From an uncultured Candidatus Saccharibacteria bacterium (GTDB lineage: Bacteria > Patescibacteriota > Minisyncoccia > UBA11713 > 2-01-FULL-45-33), in NCBI GenBank assembly GCA_964464405.1, contig CAYXFX010000004.1, forward strand, positions 1-52,428: a DNA stretch of 52,428 nt, written 5' to 3'. Positions 22,905-28,908 of this stretch are shown piece by piece. A program made the position numbers and the translations under genes. The notes beneath the pieces are model-generated. The model was not told the origin of the DNA. It made no database searches and was given only the letters and a program-made list of their open reading frames with translations. Numbering within the stretch: the first letter of the stretch is position 1; each line of letters begins with the position of its first letter.

Positions 22905-25900
22905 ATGAAGAGCATGCAAATAAAATTTTTTATAGCCGTTTCTTTATTGGTGTCGCCGATTTTTTCTTTTGCGTACGATGACAAAACAACTCATCCGGCA
23001 TTAACAGATGAGATAATAGATCTTTTTAACCTCTATTATCCAAATTCAAAATTTTCAAGCGAAGAAAAAGAGTTAATAAAAAAGGGAAGTATCGAAGAAG
23101 ATTTTGCTCCGCGATGGATGACCCATTTTTACGACCCCGTTTATAATCGGGGATTATGGGGGAATCCGTCTGCAAATGTCTGGGCACAAGATTCTGACAC
23201 TCAAGTAACTTTAACCGGATACTACAATCAAACTGGCGTATATAGCGCTTTAACACTTCGACCTTTCGAAGCTCCGAGCGACTATTCTTGGGAACGGGCA
23301 ATTTATGATTACGTTTGGGGAGACAAAAAAAGAGGCATGGAAGCTCTCGGACATGTTCTCCACTTGATTGAAGACTCTTCTGTGCCGGATCACACTCGCA
23401 ATGATGCTCATCCCCCTATTTTGGACTTTGGAAGTCCTTACGAATTTTGGACCAAACGTTTTACGCCCGAAACATTGGATGGCCTTGCCACAGAAATTTA
23501 TTTTACCGGCACTCAAATACCTACTGACTACTCGGGGCTTTATGGGTATTTTAATTCTTTGGCAATGTATTCTAACAATAACTTTTTCAGTAAAGATACT
23601 ATTTTTGACGTCGGATATCATCAACCGTTAGTTGATTTCTATGGAAATGAAATACTAAAAAATGGAAGCGTAGTTAGGTTCGGTTTTAGCGATTCCGGAC
23701 GCGTACATTTGATTCGTGTGCCATTAAATACCTCATGGAGAGCTAGTATCGGTTCCGATGACGTAGTTGAGCCAATATTATCAGATGCGGACGATAAAAT
23801 CCTCACCGATTACTGGACTCGTCTGTCCAAACAAGCTGTTTTGCATGGAGCGGGGGTTGTTAAATTGTTTTTGGAAGAGGCTGAAAAGGAAAGAAAAAGC
23901 AAAGAACTTTGGGCGAAAAATAGATCGCTGGCTGACAAATTGGCTTCTGTCTTTTCTTTTTTCGGCCCCTCGCCAGAACCGGTTTCAAACATTTCAGAAC
24001 TTTCTTCTGATGCTTTCAACTTGGAGTCCCGACCTCCAAGTAACTTAGCAACCGGGTTGCTAAGTGAAGGCGAGTTTGCCAACAGGTCTGCTTCACAAAC
24101 TTCCTCGAATGAAAGCGTTTTGAATACTCCTAACTTCGCAAGTTTATCTGCACCTGCAAATTTAATTAGTTCCGCAAATTCGAATATGAATTCGGGTTTG
24201 CCCACAAATTCTGAAACGCCGAACGGAGGAGACGGTTCGGTTCCTGCCGGTTTCGGCGGGGGAATGCCGATTCCAAACCCTATTAGTAGTACCGTCGAAA
24301 GCTTGGCGCATAGCGCAATAAGCGAATCCGATACAACAGCTCCTGGTGCGCCTGTAGTGCAAAATCCAGTGGACGGTGCAAACTTTACTGTAGCTTCAAT
24401 TAATTTTTCTGGAACCGCAGAAAATGATTCGATAATATCCAATGATTTTAATAATGCGACTACTTCTGTGGATTTACTTGGCAACTGGCTAATTAATTTA
24501 AATAATTTAAACCAGGGCACAACGACAATAAGTTTTTCTGCGCAAGACGCGGCAGGAAACAAATCTTCTTCAACACAAATTTCAATTTTTGTTGATTCCG
24601 AAATTCCCGACTTTAATTTAACAATTCAAGAATGCGAAATTTCTTTAAGCGCCGAAGATTGTGTACTGCTTTTGCCAGACATTAAAATTTCTTGGTCTTC
24701 CTCCGCTTTAGATATTGATCATTTTGAAATTATTTGCAAAAAAAACAATGTACCTTGCGAAAACTTTTTAATCGGAACTTCGACAGCTCTCTATTCTCTT
24801 TCTGAAAATTCAAGCTACATTTTTACCGGTAGGGCTTTTGATAAAAACGGAAATAAAAGTATAGAGATAAATAAATCCGTCACGTATTCTCCGCGCCCAG
24901 TTGTTATTAATGAAATTGCCTGGGCGGGAACAAAATTTCATAATTCTGATGAATGGATAGAGCTTGCAAATATAACGACTAGCGAAATTTCATTGGATGG
25001 ATGGACTCTTTTTGCAAAAAATTCAAATAAACCGTATATACCTCTTTCTGGAAAAATTCCTGCAAAAGGATATTTTCTTTTAGAAAGAACCGATGACGAA
25101 ACAGTAAGCGATATTCCTGCCGACTTAATCTATGGAAATAATGGATCAGCTTGGGCATTAAACGATTCTCCCGCGGATATTTTGGTTTTATCCCACGCAT
25201 CGACAACAATTGATGAGACCATAAGATGCAACACCAGATGGTGCGGAGGGTCAACATCCAATGAACGCCCCTCGGCTGAAAGAATAGCTCCCATGTTGCC
25301 TGGAAGTAATATGGCCAACTGGGCTACGGCGCTCGGCACTGTTAGAAATGGCAAAGACGAAAAGGGGGACCCAATAAAAGGCACACCCAAGGCAAGAAAT
25401 AGCGTCAACTATTTGATTTCTTTAGGCGACAATCTAACGGAAAATAAAATTTTAAAATCGGCAAATAGCCCCTATTTAGTTAACAATTCTTATTTAATAA
25501 TTCCAGAAGGGTTGGAGATGAGTATAGAACCAGGTGTTGTTATAAAAATTGCAAAAAATTCTACGGTGTTGGTAAGAGGAAAATTAAAATCGGAAGGGGC
25601 TCAAAATAACGAAATTGTTTTTACTTCAATAGATGACGACTCTTACGCTGGCGATATGAATGGAAACGGAACTTCCACGTCGCCCATGCCAGGCGATTGG
25701 AGAGGACTGCATTTCTCAAATACAAGTTTAGGTTCCAATGTTTCTTACACAAAATTTATTTATGGAGGAAAATGGAACGGAGGAGAATATGGATACCAAA
25801 GATCTATGGTAAGCGCTGATCACGTTTCTCTGCCGATTTCAAATTCAAATTTTGAAAAATCATTTTCTGCCGGACTTTTCTTAAATTATTCAGATTCGGT

Positions 25901-26774
25901 GGTGGAGAATAGCTCATTTTTAGAAAATAAAACAGGGATCATAATTTATCAAGGGGCTCCCTTGGTGTCAGGAAATATTTTTGAAAGTAATAATGATGGA
26001 ATAAGCCAATTAACAACGCAAAGTGTTGTTAAGGATAATGTATTTAACAATAACACGGGATATGCGGTATTTTCTGCAGATAAAATCGGAACATTTTCGG
26101 GCAACACAGGTGAGGGAAACGGAAAAAATGTAATATCTATTTATGGGAATATAGGCGTCGCAGGCTCAACAACAACTCTTGAAAAAAATGAAATTCCTTA
26201 CGGTTTGCCGGTAAATAGTTACGGACCTTTTATGTTGCCGGCGGGAGCCGGGCTTAAGATTGGGCCTGGGAGTGTTTTTAAAGCGGACAATAAAGGGCAA
26301 ATGGTTATCAACGGTACGCTTCATATAGACGGAACGGAATCTGAACGTATTCGTTTCTCTTCTTTGGCCGAAGGAGGGCCGGGGGAATGGAAGGGCCTTT
26401 TAGTAAATCCAGGAGGACTTGTTTACGGCGGATATTTTAGTTTAAAAAACGGAGGAGGAGATCCTGGATGCGAAAGCACATGCGCTGGGTTTGGAATTAA
26501 AAATGGAAGTATTGAATTATCCAACGGAGTAATCGAAAACAATCTTAGCAGAGGAATGAGAATTGAAAGTTCTTCAACAACATTAATTAACTTCGAATTT
26601 AAAAATCATGCTTCCTCCACCGCATTGCAGGCAATTAATTCAAAAATCACGCTTGACCACGTTTCATTTACAAATAATTTTCTCGCGGTTTCATCCGGCT
26701 CATCAATATTTAACGTCTACGATTTAATTTTTTCCGGAAACATAACGATATCAACGCCGCCGGATCTTTTCTAG
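22905..26774 (+). CDS. Secreted multidomain protein: Zn phospholipase C/P1-nuclease-like domain, Ig-like domain, lamin-tail domain, right-handed beta-helix
   Basis: Signal peptide; TTH, EED, HFYDP, HLIED, PDH, DAH, YE ligand pattern; VINEIAWAGT..DEWIELAN LTD motif; repeated GxxI/N-ladder beta-helix. Confidence 0.72.
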   Translation: MKSMQIKFFIAVSLLVSPIFSFAYDDKTTHPALTDEIIDLFNLYYPNSKFSSEEKELIKKGSIEEDFAPRWMTHFYDPVYNRGLWGNPSANVWAQDSDTQVTLTGYYNQTGVYSALTLRPFEAPSDYSWERAIYDYVWGDKKRGMEALGHVLHLIEDSSVPDHTRNDAHPPILDFGSPYEFWTKRFTPETLDGLATEIYFTGTQIPTDYSGLYGYFNSLAMYSNNNFFSKDTIFDVGYHQPLVDFYGNEILKNGSVVRFGFSDSGRVHLIRVPLNTSWRASIGSDDVVEPILSDADDKILTDYWTRLSKQAVLHGAGVVKLFLEEAEKERKSKELWAKNRSLADKLASVFSFFGPSPEPVSNISELSSDAFNLESRPPSNLATGLLSEGEFANRSASQTSSNESVLNTPNFASLSAPANLISSANSNMNSGLPTNSETPNGGDGSVPAGFGGGMPIPNPISSTVESLAHSAISESDTTAPGAPVVQNPVDGANFTVASINFSGTAENDSIISNDFNNATTSVDLLGNWLINLNNLNQGTTTISFSAQDAAGNKSSSTQISIFVDSEIPDFNLTIQECEISLSAEDCVLLLPDIKISWSSSALDIDHFEIICKKNNVPCENFLIGTSTALYSLSENSSYIFTGRAFDKNGNKSIEINKSVTYSPRPVVINEIAWAGTKFHNSDEWIELANITTSEISLDGWTLFAKNSNKPYIPLSGKIPAKGYFLLERTDDETVSDIPADLIYGNNGSAWALNDSPADILVLSHASTTIDETIRCNTRWCGGSTSNERPSAERIAPMLPGSNMANWATALGTVRNGKDEKGDPIKGTPKARNSVNYLISLGDNLTENKILKSANSPYLVNNSYLIIPEGLEMSIEPGVVIKIAKNSTVLVRGKLKSEGAQNNEIVFTSIDDDSYAGDMNGNGTSTSPMPGDWRGLHFSNTSLGSNVSYTKFIYGGKWNGGEYGYQRSMVSADHVSLPISNSNFEKSFSAGLFLNYSDSVVENSSFLENKTGIIIYQGAPLVSGNIFESNNDGISQLTTQSVVKDNVFNNNTGYAVFSADKIGTFSGNTGEGNGKNVISIYGNIGVAGSTTTLEKNEIPYGLPVNSYGPFMLPAGAGLKIGPGSVFKADNKGQMVINGTLHIDGTESERIRFSSLAEGGPGEWKGLLVNPGGLVYGGYFSLKNGGGDPGCESTCAGFGIKNGSIELSNGVIENNLSRGMRIESSSTTLINFEFKNHASSTALQAINSKITLDHVSFTNNFLAVSSGSSIFNVYDLIFSGNITISTPPDLF

Positions 26775-26791
26775 TCGCCCTTTTATTTTTT
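26765..26791 (+). repeat. 27-bp direct repeat, left copy
   Basis: TCTTTTCTAGTCGCCCTTTTATTTTTT, identical to 27955-27981; contains the stop codon of 22905-26774. Confidence 0.9.
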
Positions 26792-26865
26792 TTGTTTGTC
26801 ACAAATATTTTGTTAACGCATTACCTGTGCTTTACTGGCAATTTAGTAGATTTCCACATCCCCCA

Positions 26866-26894
26866 TTGATTTTTCATTATAAGAGATATATACT
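26866..26894 (+). promoter_or_regulatory. Sigma70-type promoter of the NYN cassette
   Basis: TTGATT-N17-TATACT. Confidence 0.65.
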
Positions 26895-26910
26895 GAAAAT
26901 ATTAACAGCA

Positions 26911-26945
26911 CCACCTCTGTCTTTACGGGCAGAGGTGGTTCTTTT
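26911..26945 (+). terminator. Leader hairpin / intrinsic terminator upstream of NYN-ASCH ORF
   Basis: 11-bp stem CCACCTCTGTC/GGCAGAGGTGG (one G-U), loop TTTACG, followed by TTCTTTT. Confidence 0.65.
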
Positions 26946-27848
26946 GTGTCTATTTGTGCTAAAATTCATTATAAAGTGACTAAAAAAGAAATTGTTGCAG
27001 TATATATTGATGGTAGTAATACGTACAAGAGATTAAAGGGACTGGGAATACCAGATAAGTCACTGCGGTTTGATTTATCATTTTTCGTAAAACATCTTGT
27101 TGGAGAAAGGACCTTGATATCAAAGAGATACTATATCGGCATAGTAAGGAATGTTGATAATTCCGAAAAAGCAGAAAAAATGGCAAAAAGTCAGCAAAAA
27201 TTTTTGGAAAGTCTGCGAACAGAAGGTTTTGATGTGAACCCAGGGAAGATAATGTATGACGGTGGTCGTATCAGGGAGAAGGGTGTTGATGTTAAACTTT
27301 CGGTAGACTTAGTAATAGGCGCAGTAGATAGTATATATGATACTGCGATTGTGGTCAGTTCAGATACAGACTTAATACCAGCAATAAAATATGTTCGCAA
27401 TGTTAAGGGTAAGGTGGTTGAGTATGTTGGTTTTGGAACTAATCCATCGCTTGGGATGATAAAAGAGTCATCGGTATCAAGGGTGTTCTCTCTTACTGAT
27501 TTGGCACAATTTCAAAGCAAAACTATCAAATTTAGAGATTACTTAACAGGCTTGATACTAAAAGGAGAAAAAACCACAACTTGGCGGTTATTTGATGATA
27601 AAAATTTGCTAGTAGGAGACTTATTAAATTTTCAGATATGGGAAACCGGTAAAGATTTTGCAAAAGCTAAAATTATTGAATTAAAAGAAAAAAAATTAAA
27701 AGAAATAGTAGCAAAAGACTATGATGGACACGAGAAATTAAAAGACCAGGAAAGTATGCTCAACCACTTTAGGGAGTTTTACGGAAACAAGGTTAATTTG
27801 GAAACTACGGTTAAGATAGTCAAATTCAATTTAGTTTCAAAACAATAA
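26946..27848 (+). CDS. NYN (LabA/DUF88, PIN-like) ribonuclease fused to C-terminal ASCH domain
   Basis: YIDGSN, EKGVDVKLSVDL, VSSDTDLIP acidic PIN/NYN residues; ILKGEKTTTWR ASCH motif GxKxxTxR. Start may be GTG 26976. Confidence 0.85.
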   Translation: MSICAKIHYKVTKKEIVAVYIDGSNTYKRLKGLGIPDKSLRFDLSFFVKHLVGERTLISKRYYIGIVRNVDNSEKAEKMAKSQQKFLESLRTEGFDVNPGKIMYDGGRIREKGVDVKLSVDLVIGAVDSIYDTAIVVSSDTDLIPAIKYVRNVKGKVVEYVGFGTNPSLGMIKESSVSRVFSLTDLAQFQSKTIKFRDYLTGLILKGEKTTTWRLFDDKNLLVGDLLNFQIWETGKDFAKAKIIELKEKKLKEIVAKDYDGHEKLKDQESMLNHFREFYGNKVNLETTVKIVKFNLVSKQ

Positions 27849-27954
27849 CAATGAGAGACAAACAGTCTTGTGCTTAGGGACTCTTTTTAATCCAGAGCCG
27901 TAAGTTAATTTAAGGTTATACCACCCCACTTGAAATGTCGGGAACCCTGTCTAG

Positions 27955-27981
27955 TCTTTTCTAGTCGCCCTTTTATTTTTT
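27955..27981 (+). repeat. 27-bp direct repeat, right copy
   Basis: Identical to 26765-26791. Confidence 0.9.
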
Positions 27982-27996
27982 CTTTAAATCGCTATA

Positions 27997-28908
27997 ATGA
28001 TTTCTATTATGAAAATTATTGATGCTAGAAAATATACCTATACTTTTTCAATAATTTTAGTTGCTGTGAGTTTGCTGGCGTTTACTTTGTGGGGCCTAAA
28101 GCTCGGAATCGAATTTACGGGCGGCTCTCTTTTGGAAGTCGAATTTAAAGACAACCGTCCTGAAGGAAGCGCGGTAGAAAAAAATTTAAAATCAGCGGGG
28201 CTCGAGGTAGCGACTCCTCAGTCGACCGGAGAGCGAGGAATGATTTTGCGCTTTCCAGACTTGGACGAGTCGAAGCATCAAACGGCTCTTGCGATTTTAA
28301 GAAAATTTGGAGAAGTATCCGAAAAACAATTTACCTCGATTGGCCCTTCGATTGGGGCGGAGCTTAAACGAAATTCTATTTGGGCGATTGCTACTGTAAT
28401 AATAATGATAGTACTTTACATTTCCTGGGCTTTTCGCAAAGTTTCTAGGCCTGTTTCGTCCTGGAAATATGGAATAGCGGCCCTCGTTGCTTTGATTCAT
28501 GATGTTTCAATTCCAGTCGGCTTTTTTTCTTTTCTGGGCTATTTTTATGGAATTACAATTGACACACTCTTTGTTACAGCACTTCTTACAATACTAGGTT
28601 TTTCGGTACACGATACAATTGTGGTTTTTGATCGGATTCGCGAAAACTTAAAGAAGATCGGCTCGCGGGAAAATTTCGAAAATATCGTAGAAATGAGTTT
28701 GCGCCAAACGATTGGCCGTTCGATCAATACATCTCTTACCGTTATGTTTGTGATGCTAATTTTATTTTTCTTTGGCGGAGCTACTACGCAATATTTCTCC
28801 CTCGCAATTTTGGTGGGAGTATTTTTTGGAACCTATTCATCGATTTTTATAGCAAGCTTTATTTTGGTTACTTGGCATAAATTTGCGACCCTCGAAGCGG
28901 GGGGTTGA
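27997..28908 (+). CDS. secF: Protein translocase subunit SecF
   Basis: GIEFTGGS, IGPSIGAEL, HDVSIP, LTILGFSVHDTIVVFDRIRE, RSINTS, GTYSSIFIA. Confidence 0.96.
   Translation: MISIMKIIDARKYTYTFSIILVAVSLLAFTLWGLKLGIEFTGGSLLEVEFKDNRPEGSAVEKNLKSAGLEVATPQSTGERGMILRFPDLDESKHQTALAILRKFGEVSEKQFTSIGPSIGAELKRNSIWAIATVIIMIVLYISWAFRKVSRPVSSWKYGIAALVALIHDVSIPVGFFSFLGYFYGITIDTLFVTALLTILGFSVHDTIVVFDRIRENLKKIGSRENFENIVEMSLRQTIGRSINTSLTVMFVMLILFFFGGATTQYFSLAILVGVFFGTYSSIFIASFILVTWHKFATLEAGG

What the first reader, a model, noticed from the sequence alone, without database searches (positions are those of the whole stretch)
26765..27981. 1.19-kb single-gene cassette bounded by perfect 27-bp direct repeats, no integrase
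The repeat includes the upstream gene's stop codon; removing one copy plus the insert leaves that gene directly followed by the secF upstream region. This is the footprint of site-specific integration or excision of a minimal mobile cassette mobilised in trans, with a non-tRNA target.
Basis: partly seen in the sequence, partly recalled or inferred. Interest (0 to 1): 0.65.

Follow-up and report, generated by a model that had tools for sequence, protein, structure and literature searches.

The report
Inserted nuclease-plus-hairpin gene cassette
A 1.16-kb foreign unit (one NYN-ASCH nuclease gene with its own promoter and a conserved RNA hairpin) was inserted between two core genes of an ultra-small groundwater bacterium and duplicated about 30 bases of the target; about a quarter of related units in other such bacteria carry similar but unrelated duplications, pointing to an undescribed, integrase-free way of inserting genes.

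Summary
Perfect 27-bp direct repeats (26765-26791 and 27955-27981) bracket one gene. An earlier-sampled strain has 31 perfect bp plus a degenerate extension, so the original duplication was about 31-43 bp.

The closest relative found (SecF 78% identical) has the same upstream gene followed by secF after 28 nt. The cassette is therefore an insertion.

The gene encodes an NYN (PIN-like) nuclease fused to a YqfB-like ASCH domain. Upstream lie a DnaA-box-like motif, a strong promoter, a covarying terminator hairpin and a second -10 box.

The hairpin occurs once per NYN locus in over 80 Patescibacteria loci and nowhere else in 538 kb. About a quarter of these loci are flanked by direct repeats of 21-108 bp, each a different sequence, against 0 of 124 shifted controls.

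Cassette ends are imprecise, there are no terminal inverted repeats, and no recombinase lies in the unit. Neighbouring Fic, ParE-like and other NYN cassettes show the same brackets.

So this is a mobile selfish or defence-type module inserted by a duplicative, non-att process. The "site-specific integration" reading is not supported, and the insertion mechanism remains unresolved. I found no published description. Other agents of this scan flagged the same phenomenon in other genomes.

The parts
22905..26774 (+). Upstream host gene: a 1289-aa secreted LTD / Ig-like domain protein. Its last 10 nt (three codons plus stop) lie in the left repeat.
   Evidence: ORF. Pfam LTD, Big_13 and Big_6. The orthologue in L094 ends ...SPPGLF*, compared with ...TPPDLF* here.
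26765..26791 (.). Left copy of the 27-bp target duplication. This is the functional copy: it holds the gene end and stop.
   Evidence: In the strain of runs X5/X6 identity extends to 26795 (31 bp).
26792..26849 (+). 5' filler of the insert: no similarity to any other NYN locus and no significant fold. Probably a scrap of an earlier flank.
   Evidence: In blastn against all loci, homology starts at 26853-26865. Fold z-scores are about 0. As an analogy, the filler in L055 is a foreign tRNA-Ala half.
26850..26858 (+). DnaA-box-like motif ATTTCCACA, at the 5' edge of the conserved module.
   Evidence: The sequence has 7 of 9 matches to TTATCCACA. The consensus with at most 1 mismatch sits at this position in 40 of 78 NYN loci (14 perfect), against 3 of 149 control windows.
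26866..26894 (+). Promoter P1: TTGATT, 17 nt, TATACT.
   Evidence: Promoter scan. An alignment of 79 loci anchored on the hairpin shows a conserved -35 and an extended -10, gTGTATAAT, at the same distance.
26900..26949 (+). Conserved hairpin motif: 5' UAACAGC, a 13-bp stem (26910-26939) and a U-run. It is a predicted short RNA or terminator.
   Evidence: Fold energy is -23.4 kcal/mol with z = -5.7, and the scan calls it terminator-like. Covariation: 8 of 11 pairs show compensatory changes and 95.5% of cells are paired. The covariance model scores 64 bits here and hits once per NYN locus. No Rfam family matches.
26957..26965 (+). Putative second promoter, an extended -10 (TGcTAAAAT) 10 nt before the start codon. 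It suggests a leaderless nuclease mRNA; this is inferred.
   Evidence: Sequence. In 55 of 75 loci a -10-like hexamer ends at most 14 nt before the start codon, while a Shine-Dalgarno-like motif occurs in only 5 of 75.
26976..27848 (+). NYN (PIN-like) nuclease fused to a YqfB-like ASCH domain, 290 aa.
   Evidence: Pfam NYN E = 9.5e-18 and ASCH E = 5.8e-6. Gene callers use this start. The AF2 model has pLDDT 78.7. Foldseek finds 2QIP (TMt 0.68), MARF1 NYN and YqfB (TMt 0.75). PADLOC HEC-09 scores E = 2e-16.
27849..27954 (+). 3' filler of the insert: unique sequence, no significant fold, and fast-evolving between strains.
   Evidence: No blastn hit in any locus. Fold z = -0.9 on both strands. It is not an in-register copy of the LTD gene end. 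Three of the strain differences fall here (27852, 27948, 27950).
27955..27981 (.). Right copy of the target duplication, non-coding. It supplies the region upstream of the secF -10 box.
27993..28908 (+). Downstream host gene secF, with its -10 box (TATAAT, 27993-27998) and start codon at 28009.
   Evidence: Pfam SecD_SecF_C E = 6e-53.

Best explanation
What is shown. Bases 26792-27954 are a horizontally acquired insert in the short spacer between the LTD-protein gene and secF. The insertion duplicated about 27-43 bp of the target, so both neighbouring genes stayed intact.

The functional core runs from about 26850 to 27848 and is a two-part module found throughout Patescibacteria. Its first part is a strong promoter, preceded by a DnaA-box-like motif, which drives a roughly 45-nt hairpin ending in a terminator. 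Its second part follows immediately: an NYN (PIN-like) nuclease gene, here fused to a YqfB-like ASCH domain.

The bracket is not an att site. In other genomes the same module sits at unrelated sites, and in about a quarter of them it is bracketed by a different duplicated stretch of local host DNA of 21-108 bp.

What is inferred. The module most likely works as a selfish or defence-type RNase held in check by its own hairpin RNA, or acting on it. This layout resembles a type III toxin-antitoxin locus (promoter, RNA, terminator, nuclease). The nuclease mRNA is probably leaderless, transcribed from a second -10 box.

The insertion step most likely does not use an element-encoded or att-specific recombinase. 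I put about 40% on a host-level, replication- or recombination-based illegitimate insertion of imported DNA, such as template switching or homology-facilitated joining. Such a process would copy a stretch of the target on both sides and carry along scraps of the previous flanks. The module's selfish function would then keep the insert in the genome.
For: Insertion and empty site.
- L094, the closest relative (SecF 78% identical), has the LTD gene stop followed after 28 nt by secF.
- The repeat is real and unique in the window.
- The 31-bp version and its extension in an older strain show that one copy is decaying.

Family-wide pattern.
- NYN homologues of 60-85% identity sit in unrelated gene neighbourhoods.
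- The best direct repeat flanking the gene scores at least 16 in about 20-24 of 85 loci, against 0 of 400 mismatched locus pairs.
- With tighter geometry the count is 14 of 71, against 0 of 124 windows shifted by 1.7 kb in the same loci.
- Each repeat is a different sequence and overlaps local gene ends or starts.
- Mismatches inside coding overlaps show no codon-position bias (6/6/8 by position; 7 synonymous, 13 non-synonymous). This fits in-situ duplication followed by neutral decay.

The module.
- The hairpin covaries and is found exactly once per NYN locus and nowhere else in 538 kb.
- P1 is conserved and the DnaA box is enriched.
- A second -10 box is common and a Shine-Dalgarno motif is rare.
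- The protein has NYN and ASCH folds, and the acidic residues are invariant in the alignment.

Not a transposon or att element.
- There are no terminal inverted repeats.
- The distances from the repeats to the conserved core vary: 5-61 nt on the 5' side and -5 to +106 nt or more on the 3' side.
- The window's own fillers match nothing.
- The filler in L055 is the 3' half of a foreign tRNA-Ala.
- Adjacent Fic, ParE/YoeB-like, HTH and second-type NYN cassettes carry the same kind of bracket, sometimes as three copies of one target.
Against: - No empty-site allele was found within the same species, and no circular or excised form. Only assembler contigs could be laid, not raw reads. Two exact-pattern scans of JGI metagenomes found nothing.
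- About three quarters of NYN loci show no detectable bracket. The duplication may have decayed there, or those copies may have arrived by another route.
- No expression data exist (no RNA runs). The short RNA, the leaderless mRNA and any toxin-antitoxin behaviour are inferences.
- The related candidate defence protein HEC-09 gave no phage protection when tested.
- The strict association of brackets with NYN cassettes, and the re-use of the same target with coinciding boundaries in stacked arrays, could instead point to a dedicated enzyme.
Confidence: 0.72

Rival explanations
1. Site-specific integration. The 27-mer is an att core, recombined by an integrase encoded elsewhere in the genome or on a helper element. 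The cassette can excise as a circle.
For: The bracket is a perfect direct repeat, the insert is a discrete unit, and the empty site in a relative corresponds to one repeat copy. The rest of the genome could not be searched for integrases.
Against: - The repeat is native host sequence (the gene end plus spacer) and has no counterpart at other NYN insertions. Their brackets are 21-108 bp long and unrelated in sequence.
- No circle or empty joint appeared in 7 runs.
- The cassette edges are variable.
- No phage or plasmid carries a close relative.
Confidence: 0.05
2. Autonomous element of a new kind. The NYN nuclease itself, perhaps guided by the hairpin or by DnaA bound at the 5' box, makes widely staggered nicks in the target. 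This inserts the unit and generates long, variable target duplications.
For: - Brackets are tightly associated with NYN cassettes (14 of 71 against 0 of 124).
- The hairpin, DnaA box and nuclease co-occur one-to-one.
- The PIN-like fold is shared with DNA flap endonucleases (T5 FEN hit).
- The same target is re-used with coinciding boundaries in stacked arrays.
- From my own knowledge, the Tn5 outside end also contains a DnaA box.
Against: - From established knowledge, characterised NYN domains are RNases (MARF1, Regnase, YacP/Rae1).
- The cassette ends are not precise and carry foreign scraps.
- There are no terminal repeats.
- Cassettes without an NYN gene (Fic, ParE-like pair, HTH) have the same brackets.
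Confidence: 0.13
3. Mobilisation in trans by a transposase of the IS1634/IS1549 type. These enzymes are known to create long, variable direct repeats.
For: IS1549 and IS1634 produce duplications of 8-514 bp (PMC2266710). The length range here (21-108 bp) falls within that range.
Against: There are no terminal inverted repeats or conserved ends for a transposase to bind. No transposase gene lies next to any of the loci inspected.
Confidence: 0.05
4. The bracket is a by-product of homologous exchange between relatives. Once a bracketed cassette exists at a site, it spreads or stacks by RecA-dependent recombination through the repeat, for example a circle carrying one repeat copy that integrates Campbell-style. 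On this view the present copy was acquired that way from a close relative rather than by a new insertion event.
For: Stacked arrays hold three copies of the same target with a shorter middle copy (L021, L066). Related loci L039 and L041 share a target but hold different cassettes. Both are easily produced by recombination between alleles.
Against: This does not explain how a bracket first forms at a new site. The repeat differences look like neutral decay rather than allelic (synonymous) differences. In L041 the second duplication spans the junction with an earlier cassette, which implies a new duplicative event.
Confidence: 0.15

Closest known systems
IS1634 / IS1549 insertion sequences (IS1634 family, IS4-related)
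   Same: Insertion creates long direct repeats of host DNA that vary in length from copy to copy (8-514 bp; PMC2266710). No mechanism has been established for these elements either.
   Different: Those elements encode a DDE transposase and have terminal inverted repeats. This unit has neither, and its ends are imprecise.
Type III toxin-antitoxin loci (ToxIN, CptIN, TenpIN)
   Same: The gene layout matches: promoter, small structured RNA, intrinsic terminator, then an endoribonuclease gene. Both are small, horizontally mobile, defence or addiction-type modules. The layout of type III loci is taken from my own knowledge.
   Different: The RNA here is a single hairpin, not a tandem array of repeats. 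The nuclease has an NYN/PIN-like fold plus an ASCH domain, not a ToxN fold. Toxicity and neutralisation are untested.
LabA-like NYN proteins (Pfam PF01936; PDB 2QIP; MARF1 NYN 6FDL) and the PADLOC candidate HEC-09
   Same: The N-terminal domain passes the Pfam threshold and folds like 2QIP and MARF1. The HEC-09 model matches at E = 2e-16.
   Different: This protein is fused to a YqfB-like ASCH domain and is coupled to a dedicated upstream hairpin. HEC-09 has a different N-terminal domain and gave no protection in the published test.
Homology-facilitated illegitimate recombination, or insertion-duplication during natural transformation
   Same: Both are recombinase-free acquisition of foreign DNA with imprecise ends and carried-over donor flank. 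The example here is the tRNA half in L055. The description of this process is from my own knowledge, not from a paper read here.
   Different: As far as I know, those processes are not known to leave systematic 20-110-bp target duplications, or to favour particular cassette families.
Integron gene cassettes and CALIN arrays
   Same: Both involve single-gene cassettes, often toxin-antitoxin genes, stacked in arrays and separated by repeated sequence.
   Different: The repeats here are copies of local host sequence, not attC hairpins brought in by the cassette. There is no integrase, and the cassettes carry their own promoters.

Membership tests
NYN / LabA-like nuclease (PF01936) | The Pfam model is matched above its gathering score. 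| tested here: met
   65.5 bits against a cut-off of 24.2, E = 9.5e-18, residues 17-165 of the 300-aa ORF.
NYN / LabA-like nuclease (PF01936) | PIN-like alpha/beta fold. | tested here: met
   The AF2 model (pLDDT 78.7) matches 2QIP with TMt 0.68 and E = 2e-7. It also matches MARF1 NYN (6FDL, 5YAA) and T5 flap endonuclease.
NYN / LabA-like nuclease (PF01936) | Conserved acidic metal-binding residues. | tested here: met
   D12, D105, D111, D130 and D132 (motifs IDG.N and SSDTD) are invariant in 14 homologues. Their position in the pocket was not inspected in the model.
NYN / LabA-like nuclease (PF01936) | Ribonuclease activity. | not testable with these tools
   This needs a biochemical assay.
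ASCH domain (PF04266), YqfB-like | Pfam model matched above threshold, and a PUA-like beta-barrel fold. | tested here: met
   27.4 bits against a cut-off of 21.2. Foldseek matches YqfB 9KYF with TMt 0.75, and also PH0355 and ZmASCH. The sequence-level match to YqfB is weak.
ASCH domain (PF04266), YqfB-like | N4-acetylcytidine amidohydrolase catalytic residues. | not tested
   The GxKxxTxR-like stretch (GEKTTTWR) is present, but the residues were not mapped onto the YqfB active site.
Site-specific integrative element (att plus integrase) | A tyrosine or serine recombinase gene in or next to the element. | tested here: not met
   The only ORF in the unit is NYN-ASCH, and its neighbours are the LTD gene, secF and rpoB. 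The whole genome was not searchable.
Site-specific integrative element (att plus integrase) | The same att core at independent insertions of related elements. | tested here: not met
   About twenty bracketed NYN loci have unrelated repeat sequences of 21-108 bp.
Site-specific integrative element (att plus integrase) | A detectable excised circle or empty site in the population. | tested here: inconclusive
   No joints in contigs of 7 runs. Raw reads were not available.
DDE insertion sequence / MITE (including the IS1634 family) | Terminal inverted repeats. | tested here: not met
   The best terminal inverted match is 4-8 nt, no better than shuffled sequence, in 14 of the 15 bracketed cassettes tested (one borderline, L005, p = 0.035).
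DDE insertion sequence / MITE (including the IS1634 family) | A transposase gene, in cis or in the same genome. | tested here: inconclusive
   None lies in the unit or in the flanks inspected.
DDE insertion sequence / MITE (including the IS1634 family) | Target-site duplication. | tested here: met
   27-31 bp perfect here and 21-108 bp in relatives.
Type III toxin-antitoxin system | An RNA gene and terminator directly upstream of an endoribonuclease gene. | tested here: met
   The order P1, hairpin with U-run, then nuclease ORF is conserved in over 80 loci. The layout only is shown; transcripts were not observed.
Type III toxin-antitoxin system | The antitoxin RNA consists of tandem repeats processed by the toxin. 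| tested here: not met
   A single hairpin is present. No tandem repeats occur in the window's leader.
Type III toxin-antitoxin system | Toxicity that is neutralised by the RNA. | not testable with these tools
   This needs expression experiments.
Integron cassette | An attC recombination site brought in by the cassette, and an IntI integrase. | tested here: not met
   The repeat is host sequence that is present in the empty-site relative. It is not palindromic, and no integrase is present.

The most novel reading that the evidence does not exclude
The hairpin-plus-NYN unit is a previously unrecognised class of mobile element. It would also be the clearest marker of a Patescibacteria-wide, recombinase-free insertion route. 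In this route small promoter-to-stop cassettes enter gene boundaries with 20-110-bp target duplications, re-use the same targets to build arrays, and may exploit DnaA or the hairpin.
Probability: 0.22. Interest if true: 0.85.

Novelty: new variant of a known kind. Interest (0 to 1): 0.62.

Why it matters
Patescibacteria have tiny genomes and few recognisable mobile elements, yet they exchange genes. This case shows an insertion with both junctions, an empty site in a relative, and a decaying duplication.

Through its relatives, it also shows that one nuclease-plus-hairpin module has been inserted at many unrelated sites with long, variable duplications and no recombinase of its own. If general, this would explain how accessory, toxin-antitoxin and defence genes enter these genomes without disrupting densely packed core genes.

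It also defines a new small RNA-nuclease pair whose function can be tested directly by expressing the nuclease with and without the hairpin.

Tried and rejected
1. Circle or empty-site signal. Contigs of runs X5/X6 break exactly at the repeat edges, and one 228-nt contig ends in repeat+TTG, which at first looked like a circle junction. Re-laying the reads showed that this strain has TTGT after the right repeat. The repeat is therefore 31 bp, equal to the assembler's k, and collapses into one double-depth 31-mer. I rejected it as evidence of a circle.

2. Higher depth of the cassette body in X5/X6 (about 1.5 times the flanks). No alternative path was found, so I left this as noise.

3. Exact empty-site patterns in JGI metagenomes. 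Two scans gave 0 hits.

4. The 3' filler as a decayed longer copy of the LTD gene end. In-register identity is at background beyond about 12 nt.

5. Terminal inverted repeats. None were found.

6. The donor-allele origin of one repeat copy, tested as synonymous bias in the mismatches. No bias was seen.

7. Rfam. No family matched in 26000-28800 at E up to 1.

8. Phage and plasmid vehicles. Only distant NYN genes were found.

9. RNA-seq. No runs were available.

10. The closest NYN-ASCH relative, L100. It shares only 26889-27842 and has no bracket.

I therefore could not search the 27-mer, extra cassette copies or recombinases genome-wide.
Full report
**The observation**

The window holds a perfect 27-nt direct repeat, TCTTTTCTAGTCGCCCTTTTATTTTTT, at 26765-26791 and 27955-27981, with a spacing of 1190 nt. 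There are no other copies in the 52-kb window at up to three mismatches, and none in 100 shuffles. A 74% look-alike inside secF is chance.

The left copy contains the last three codons and the stop of a 1289-aa LTD/Ig-domain protein gene (22905-26774). The right copy ends 11 nt before the TATAAT box of secF, whose start codon is at 28009. rpoB follows. Between the copies lies one gene, 26976-27848.

The same arrangement is present in an NCBI MAG (GCA_016176325.1) and in Logan contigs of 6 groundwater runs from two studies, and partly in a seventh low-coverage run. It is therefore not an assembly artefact.

**A strain difference that refines the observation**

The 2017 runs X5 and X6 carry a slightly different strain. 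There the four bases after the right repeat read TTGT, as they do after the left repeat, instead of CTTT. The repeat is thus 31 bp perfect in that strain.

Two further changes (T>C at 27948 and 27950) make the 12 nt to the left of the right copy read AACCCCGCCTAG, against AACGCCGCCGGA on the left side. The duplication made at insertion was therefore at least 31 bp and probably about 43 bp. The non-functional right copy has been eroding from both edges in the window's strain.

This also explains why the k = 31 assembler breaks contigs exactly at the repeat edges in those runs. A 31-nt contig of double depth is the collapsed repeat. I first read the breaks as a possible circle junction and then rejected that. 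No run shows a joint that skips the insert or joins its ends. Only contigs could be laid, not reads.

**It is an insertion**

The nearest relative I could find is GCA_041643115.1 (locus L094), whose SecF is 78% identical. It has the orthologous LTD gene ending ...SPPGLF*, against ...TPPDLF* here, followed after only 28 nt by secF. Its sequence aligns to the window's left flank plus one repeat plus right flank.

More distant relatives (about 72% identical) have other small genes in front of secF, among them a HicB-like antitoxin. That spacer is evidently a place where small genes come and go. Two exact-pattern scans of JGI metagenomes for an empty-site allele of this very strain found nothing.

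**What the insert carries**

The protein (290 aa) has an N-terminal NYN/LabA-like domain (Pfam E = 9.5e-18) and a C-terminal ASCH domain (E = 5.8e-6). An AlphaFold model (pLDDT 78.7) gives these structural matches:
- The first domain matches the LabA-like protein 2QIP (TMt 0.68), the MARF1 NYN RNase domain and T5 flap endonuclease.
- The second domain matches E. coli YqfB, an N4-acetylcytidine amidohydrolase (TMt 0.75), and the Zymomonas ASCH protein.

The acidic residues typical of PIN-like nucleases (D12, D105, D111, D130, D132) are invariant among homologues. PADLOC's NYN candidate HEC-09 matches at E = 2e-16. In the paper that proposed HEC-09, it gave no protection against the phages tested (bioRxiv 10.1101/2024.01.29.577857).

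**Conserved non-coding architecture upstream of the gene**

| Element | Coordinates | Evidence |
|---|---|---|
| DnaA-box-like motif ATTTCCACA | 26850-26858 | |
| Promoter TTGATT-17-TATACT | 26866-26894 | |
| 13-bp hairpin with a U-run | 26910-26939 | -23.4 kcal/mol, z = -5.7; |
| Extended -10, TGcTAAAAT, 10 nt before the GTG start | 26957-26965 | |

- **Hairpin covariation.** Across 18 loci the stem covaries: 8 of 11 pairs show compensatory changes and 95.5% of cells are paired, against 35-53% when the partner is slid.
- **Hairpin distribution.** A covariance model built from these sequences hits once, on the gene's strand and just upstream of the start, in practically every NYN locus (over 80). 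It hits once in the window, and not at all in the NYN-less relatives or elsewhere in 538 kb. Rfam has no matching family.
- **Promoter P1.** Anchoring 79 loci on the hairpin shows a conserved -35 and an extended -10 (gTGTATAAT) placed so that transcription would start at the conserved UAACAGC leader.
- **Second promoter.** In 55 of 75 loci a second -10-like box ends within 14 nt of the start codon, and only 5 of 75 have a Shine-Dalgarno-like motif.
- **DnaA box.** The consensus TTATCCACA, with at most one mismatch, lies at the 5' edge in 40 of 78 loci (14 perfect), against 3 of 149 control windows.

My reading, which is inferred, is that P1 makes a roughly 45-nt terminated hairpin RNA and that the nuclease is translated from a leaderless mRNA. 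The pair would work like a small RNA-controlled RNase, with a layout like a type III toxin-antitoxin locus. No RNA data exist to test this.

**The bracket is a family trait, but not a fixed site**

NYN-ASCH and NYN-only homologues (60-85% identical) occur in thousands of Patescibacteria contigs, in unrelated neighbourhoods.

For each of 85 loci I compared the 600 nt before the gene with the 700 nt after it. Between 20 and 24 loci have a same-strand match scoring at least 16, with lengths of 21-108 bp and identities of 80-100%. None of 400 mismatched locus pairs reached that score. With tighter geometry the count is 14 of 71, against 0 of 124 windows shifted by 1.7 kb within the same loci.

Every bracket is a different sequence, and each is a copy of local host DNA. 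Examples are a gene end (here), a gene start (L005, L069) and the region upstream of a tRNA (L055). Where imperfect brackets overlap coding sequence, mismatches fall evenly on codon positions (6/6/8; 7 synonymous, 13 non-synonymous). That is what neutral decay of one copy predicts. These are therefore target duplications made at insertion, not att sites.

**Clues to the insertion mechanism**

- The bracketed units have no terminal inverted repeats.
- The distance from the left repeat to the DnaA box varies from 5 to 61 nt. The distance from the stop codon to the right repeat varies from -5 to +106 nt, and is several hundred nt in some loci.
- In the window, 58 nt at the 5' end and 106 nt at the 3' end match no other NYN locus and have no significant fold. 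The 3' piece is not a decayed copy of the target, and it collects most of the strain differences.
- In L055 the corresponding filler is the 3' half of a foreign tRNA-Ala. Cassettes therefore travel with scraps of their previous surroundings.
- A general repeat scan of the 0.5 Mb of loci found further bracketed segments next to the NYN cassettes. Their contents are a Fic/DOC gene (L041), a ParE/YoeB-like pair (L060), a second type of NYN gene on the other strand (L066), an HTH protein (L050) and a LAGLIDADG endonuclease (L061).
- In L021, L041, L060, L066 and L084 the same target is present three times, separating two cassettes.
- In L041 the second duplication spans the junction with the earlier cassette, which implies a fresh duplicative event.

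Together this argues against an att-specific integrase and against a classical transposase acting on defined ends. It also argues against the NYN protein being required for insertion. It fits best a host-level illegitimate process that duplicates part of the target, such as template switching at a stalled fork or homology-facilitated joining of imported DNA. Spread and stacking by ordinary homologous recombination among relatives would follow.

I hold this mechanistic step at about 40%. The coincidence of boundaries in stacked arrays, and the tight link to particular cassette families, keep a dedicated and still unknown enzyme in play.

**Comparison with known systems**

- **IS1634 and IS1549.** These are known to produce long, variable duplications of 8-514 bp, with no accepted mechanism (PMC2266710). 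They have a transposase and inverted repeats, which this unit lacks.
- **Type III toxin-antitoxin loci.** They share the promoter-RNA-terminator-RNase layout, but not the repeat-array RNA or the toxin fold.
- **Integron cassettes.** They share the array-like stacking, but their repeats (attC) come with the cassette and need IntI.

Full-text searches returned no paper that appeared to describe an NYN-hairpin cassette or long target duplications in Patescibacteria.

**Relation to earlier notes of this scan**

After I had reached this reading, the scan's notebook showed that other agents had flagged the same kind of NYN cassette with long duplications in at least six other genomes. They had flagged similar brackets around zeta-kinase and HEPN-MNT cassettes. 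Those notes are not independent evidence. My own tests agree with them on the brackets and the hairpin.

I did not find here the convergent 3' small RNA that some of them describe. This window's 3' segment is unique.

**Limits**

I could not search the 27-mer, other cassette copies or recombinase genes across the genome, nor survey relatives systematically. Only assembler contigs of the public runs were available.

**Verdict**

This is a clean, well-bracketed example of an apparently undescribed and widespread module. I rate it as a new variant of known kinds (selfish RNase modules; elements that make long duplications). There is a real chance, about one in five, that it represents a new class of mobile DNA.

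Noticed in passing
window 26850-26858; loci L014-L093, 80-190 nt upstream of the NYN start: A DnaA-box consensus (TTATCCACA, in either orientation) sits at the 5' edge of the NYN module. It is found in 40 of 78 loci with at most 1 mismatch (14 perfect), against 3 of 149 control windows. Its role is unknown; it could be regulatory or linked to insertion.
   Followed up: partly
L021 2335-3636; L041 487-2787; L060 2833-4336; L066 2813-4205; L084 2826-5472; nested in L032 2193-3825: The same target sequence is present three times, separating two different small cassettes: NYN plus Fic, a ParE-like pair, a second NYN type, or others. These are hot-spot re-use or recombinational stacking that resembles a cassette array.
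   Followed up: partly
L055 2835-2875 and 3581-3655: The 5' filler of a bracketed NYN cassette is the 3' half of a foreign tRNA-Ala. A complete resident tRNA-Ala(TGC) follows the right repeat. The cassette evidently brought a scrap of an earlier flank with it.
   Followed up: partly
L060 2898-2940 and 3641-3683: The adjacent ParE/YoeB-like toxin-antitoxin cassette begins with the same DnaA-box and -35 promoter segment as the NYN cassette. Either they share a promoter module, or a duplication spans the earlier junction.
   Followed up: no
L095 4031-5001; L096 4492-5001; L097 1-486: In relatives whose SecF is 72% identical, the spacer in front of secF holds other small genes, including a HicB-like antitoxin and ORFs of 95 and 120 aa. 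No brackets are detectable. The position appears to be a recurrent landing site.
   Followed up: partly
window 27819-27985 (strain of runs X5/X6): Six of the nine differences between the 2017 and 2020 strains across 3.2 kb cluster in 170 nt at the cassette's 3' end and right junction. The cassette body (26766-27767) is identical in both.
   Followed up: partly
window 27993-28011: The secF -10 box lies 10 nt before its start codon and no Shine-Dalgarno motif is present. This is the same leaderless-looking arrangement as for the NYN gene.
   Followed up: no
L091 833-4712: Three copies of a 136-181-nt upstream region precede paralogous secreted-protein genes on the minus strand, with NYN genes interleaved. 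This looks like tandem paralogue duplication rather than cassette insertion.
   Followed up: no
L005 2950-2993: An 11-nt unit, AGTTTGTTCGT, is repeated three times between the hairpin and the NYN start in one relative. The window has nothing like it.
   Followed up: no
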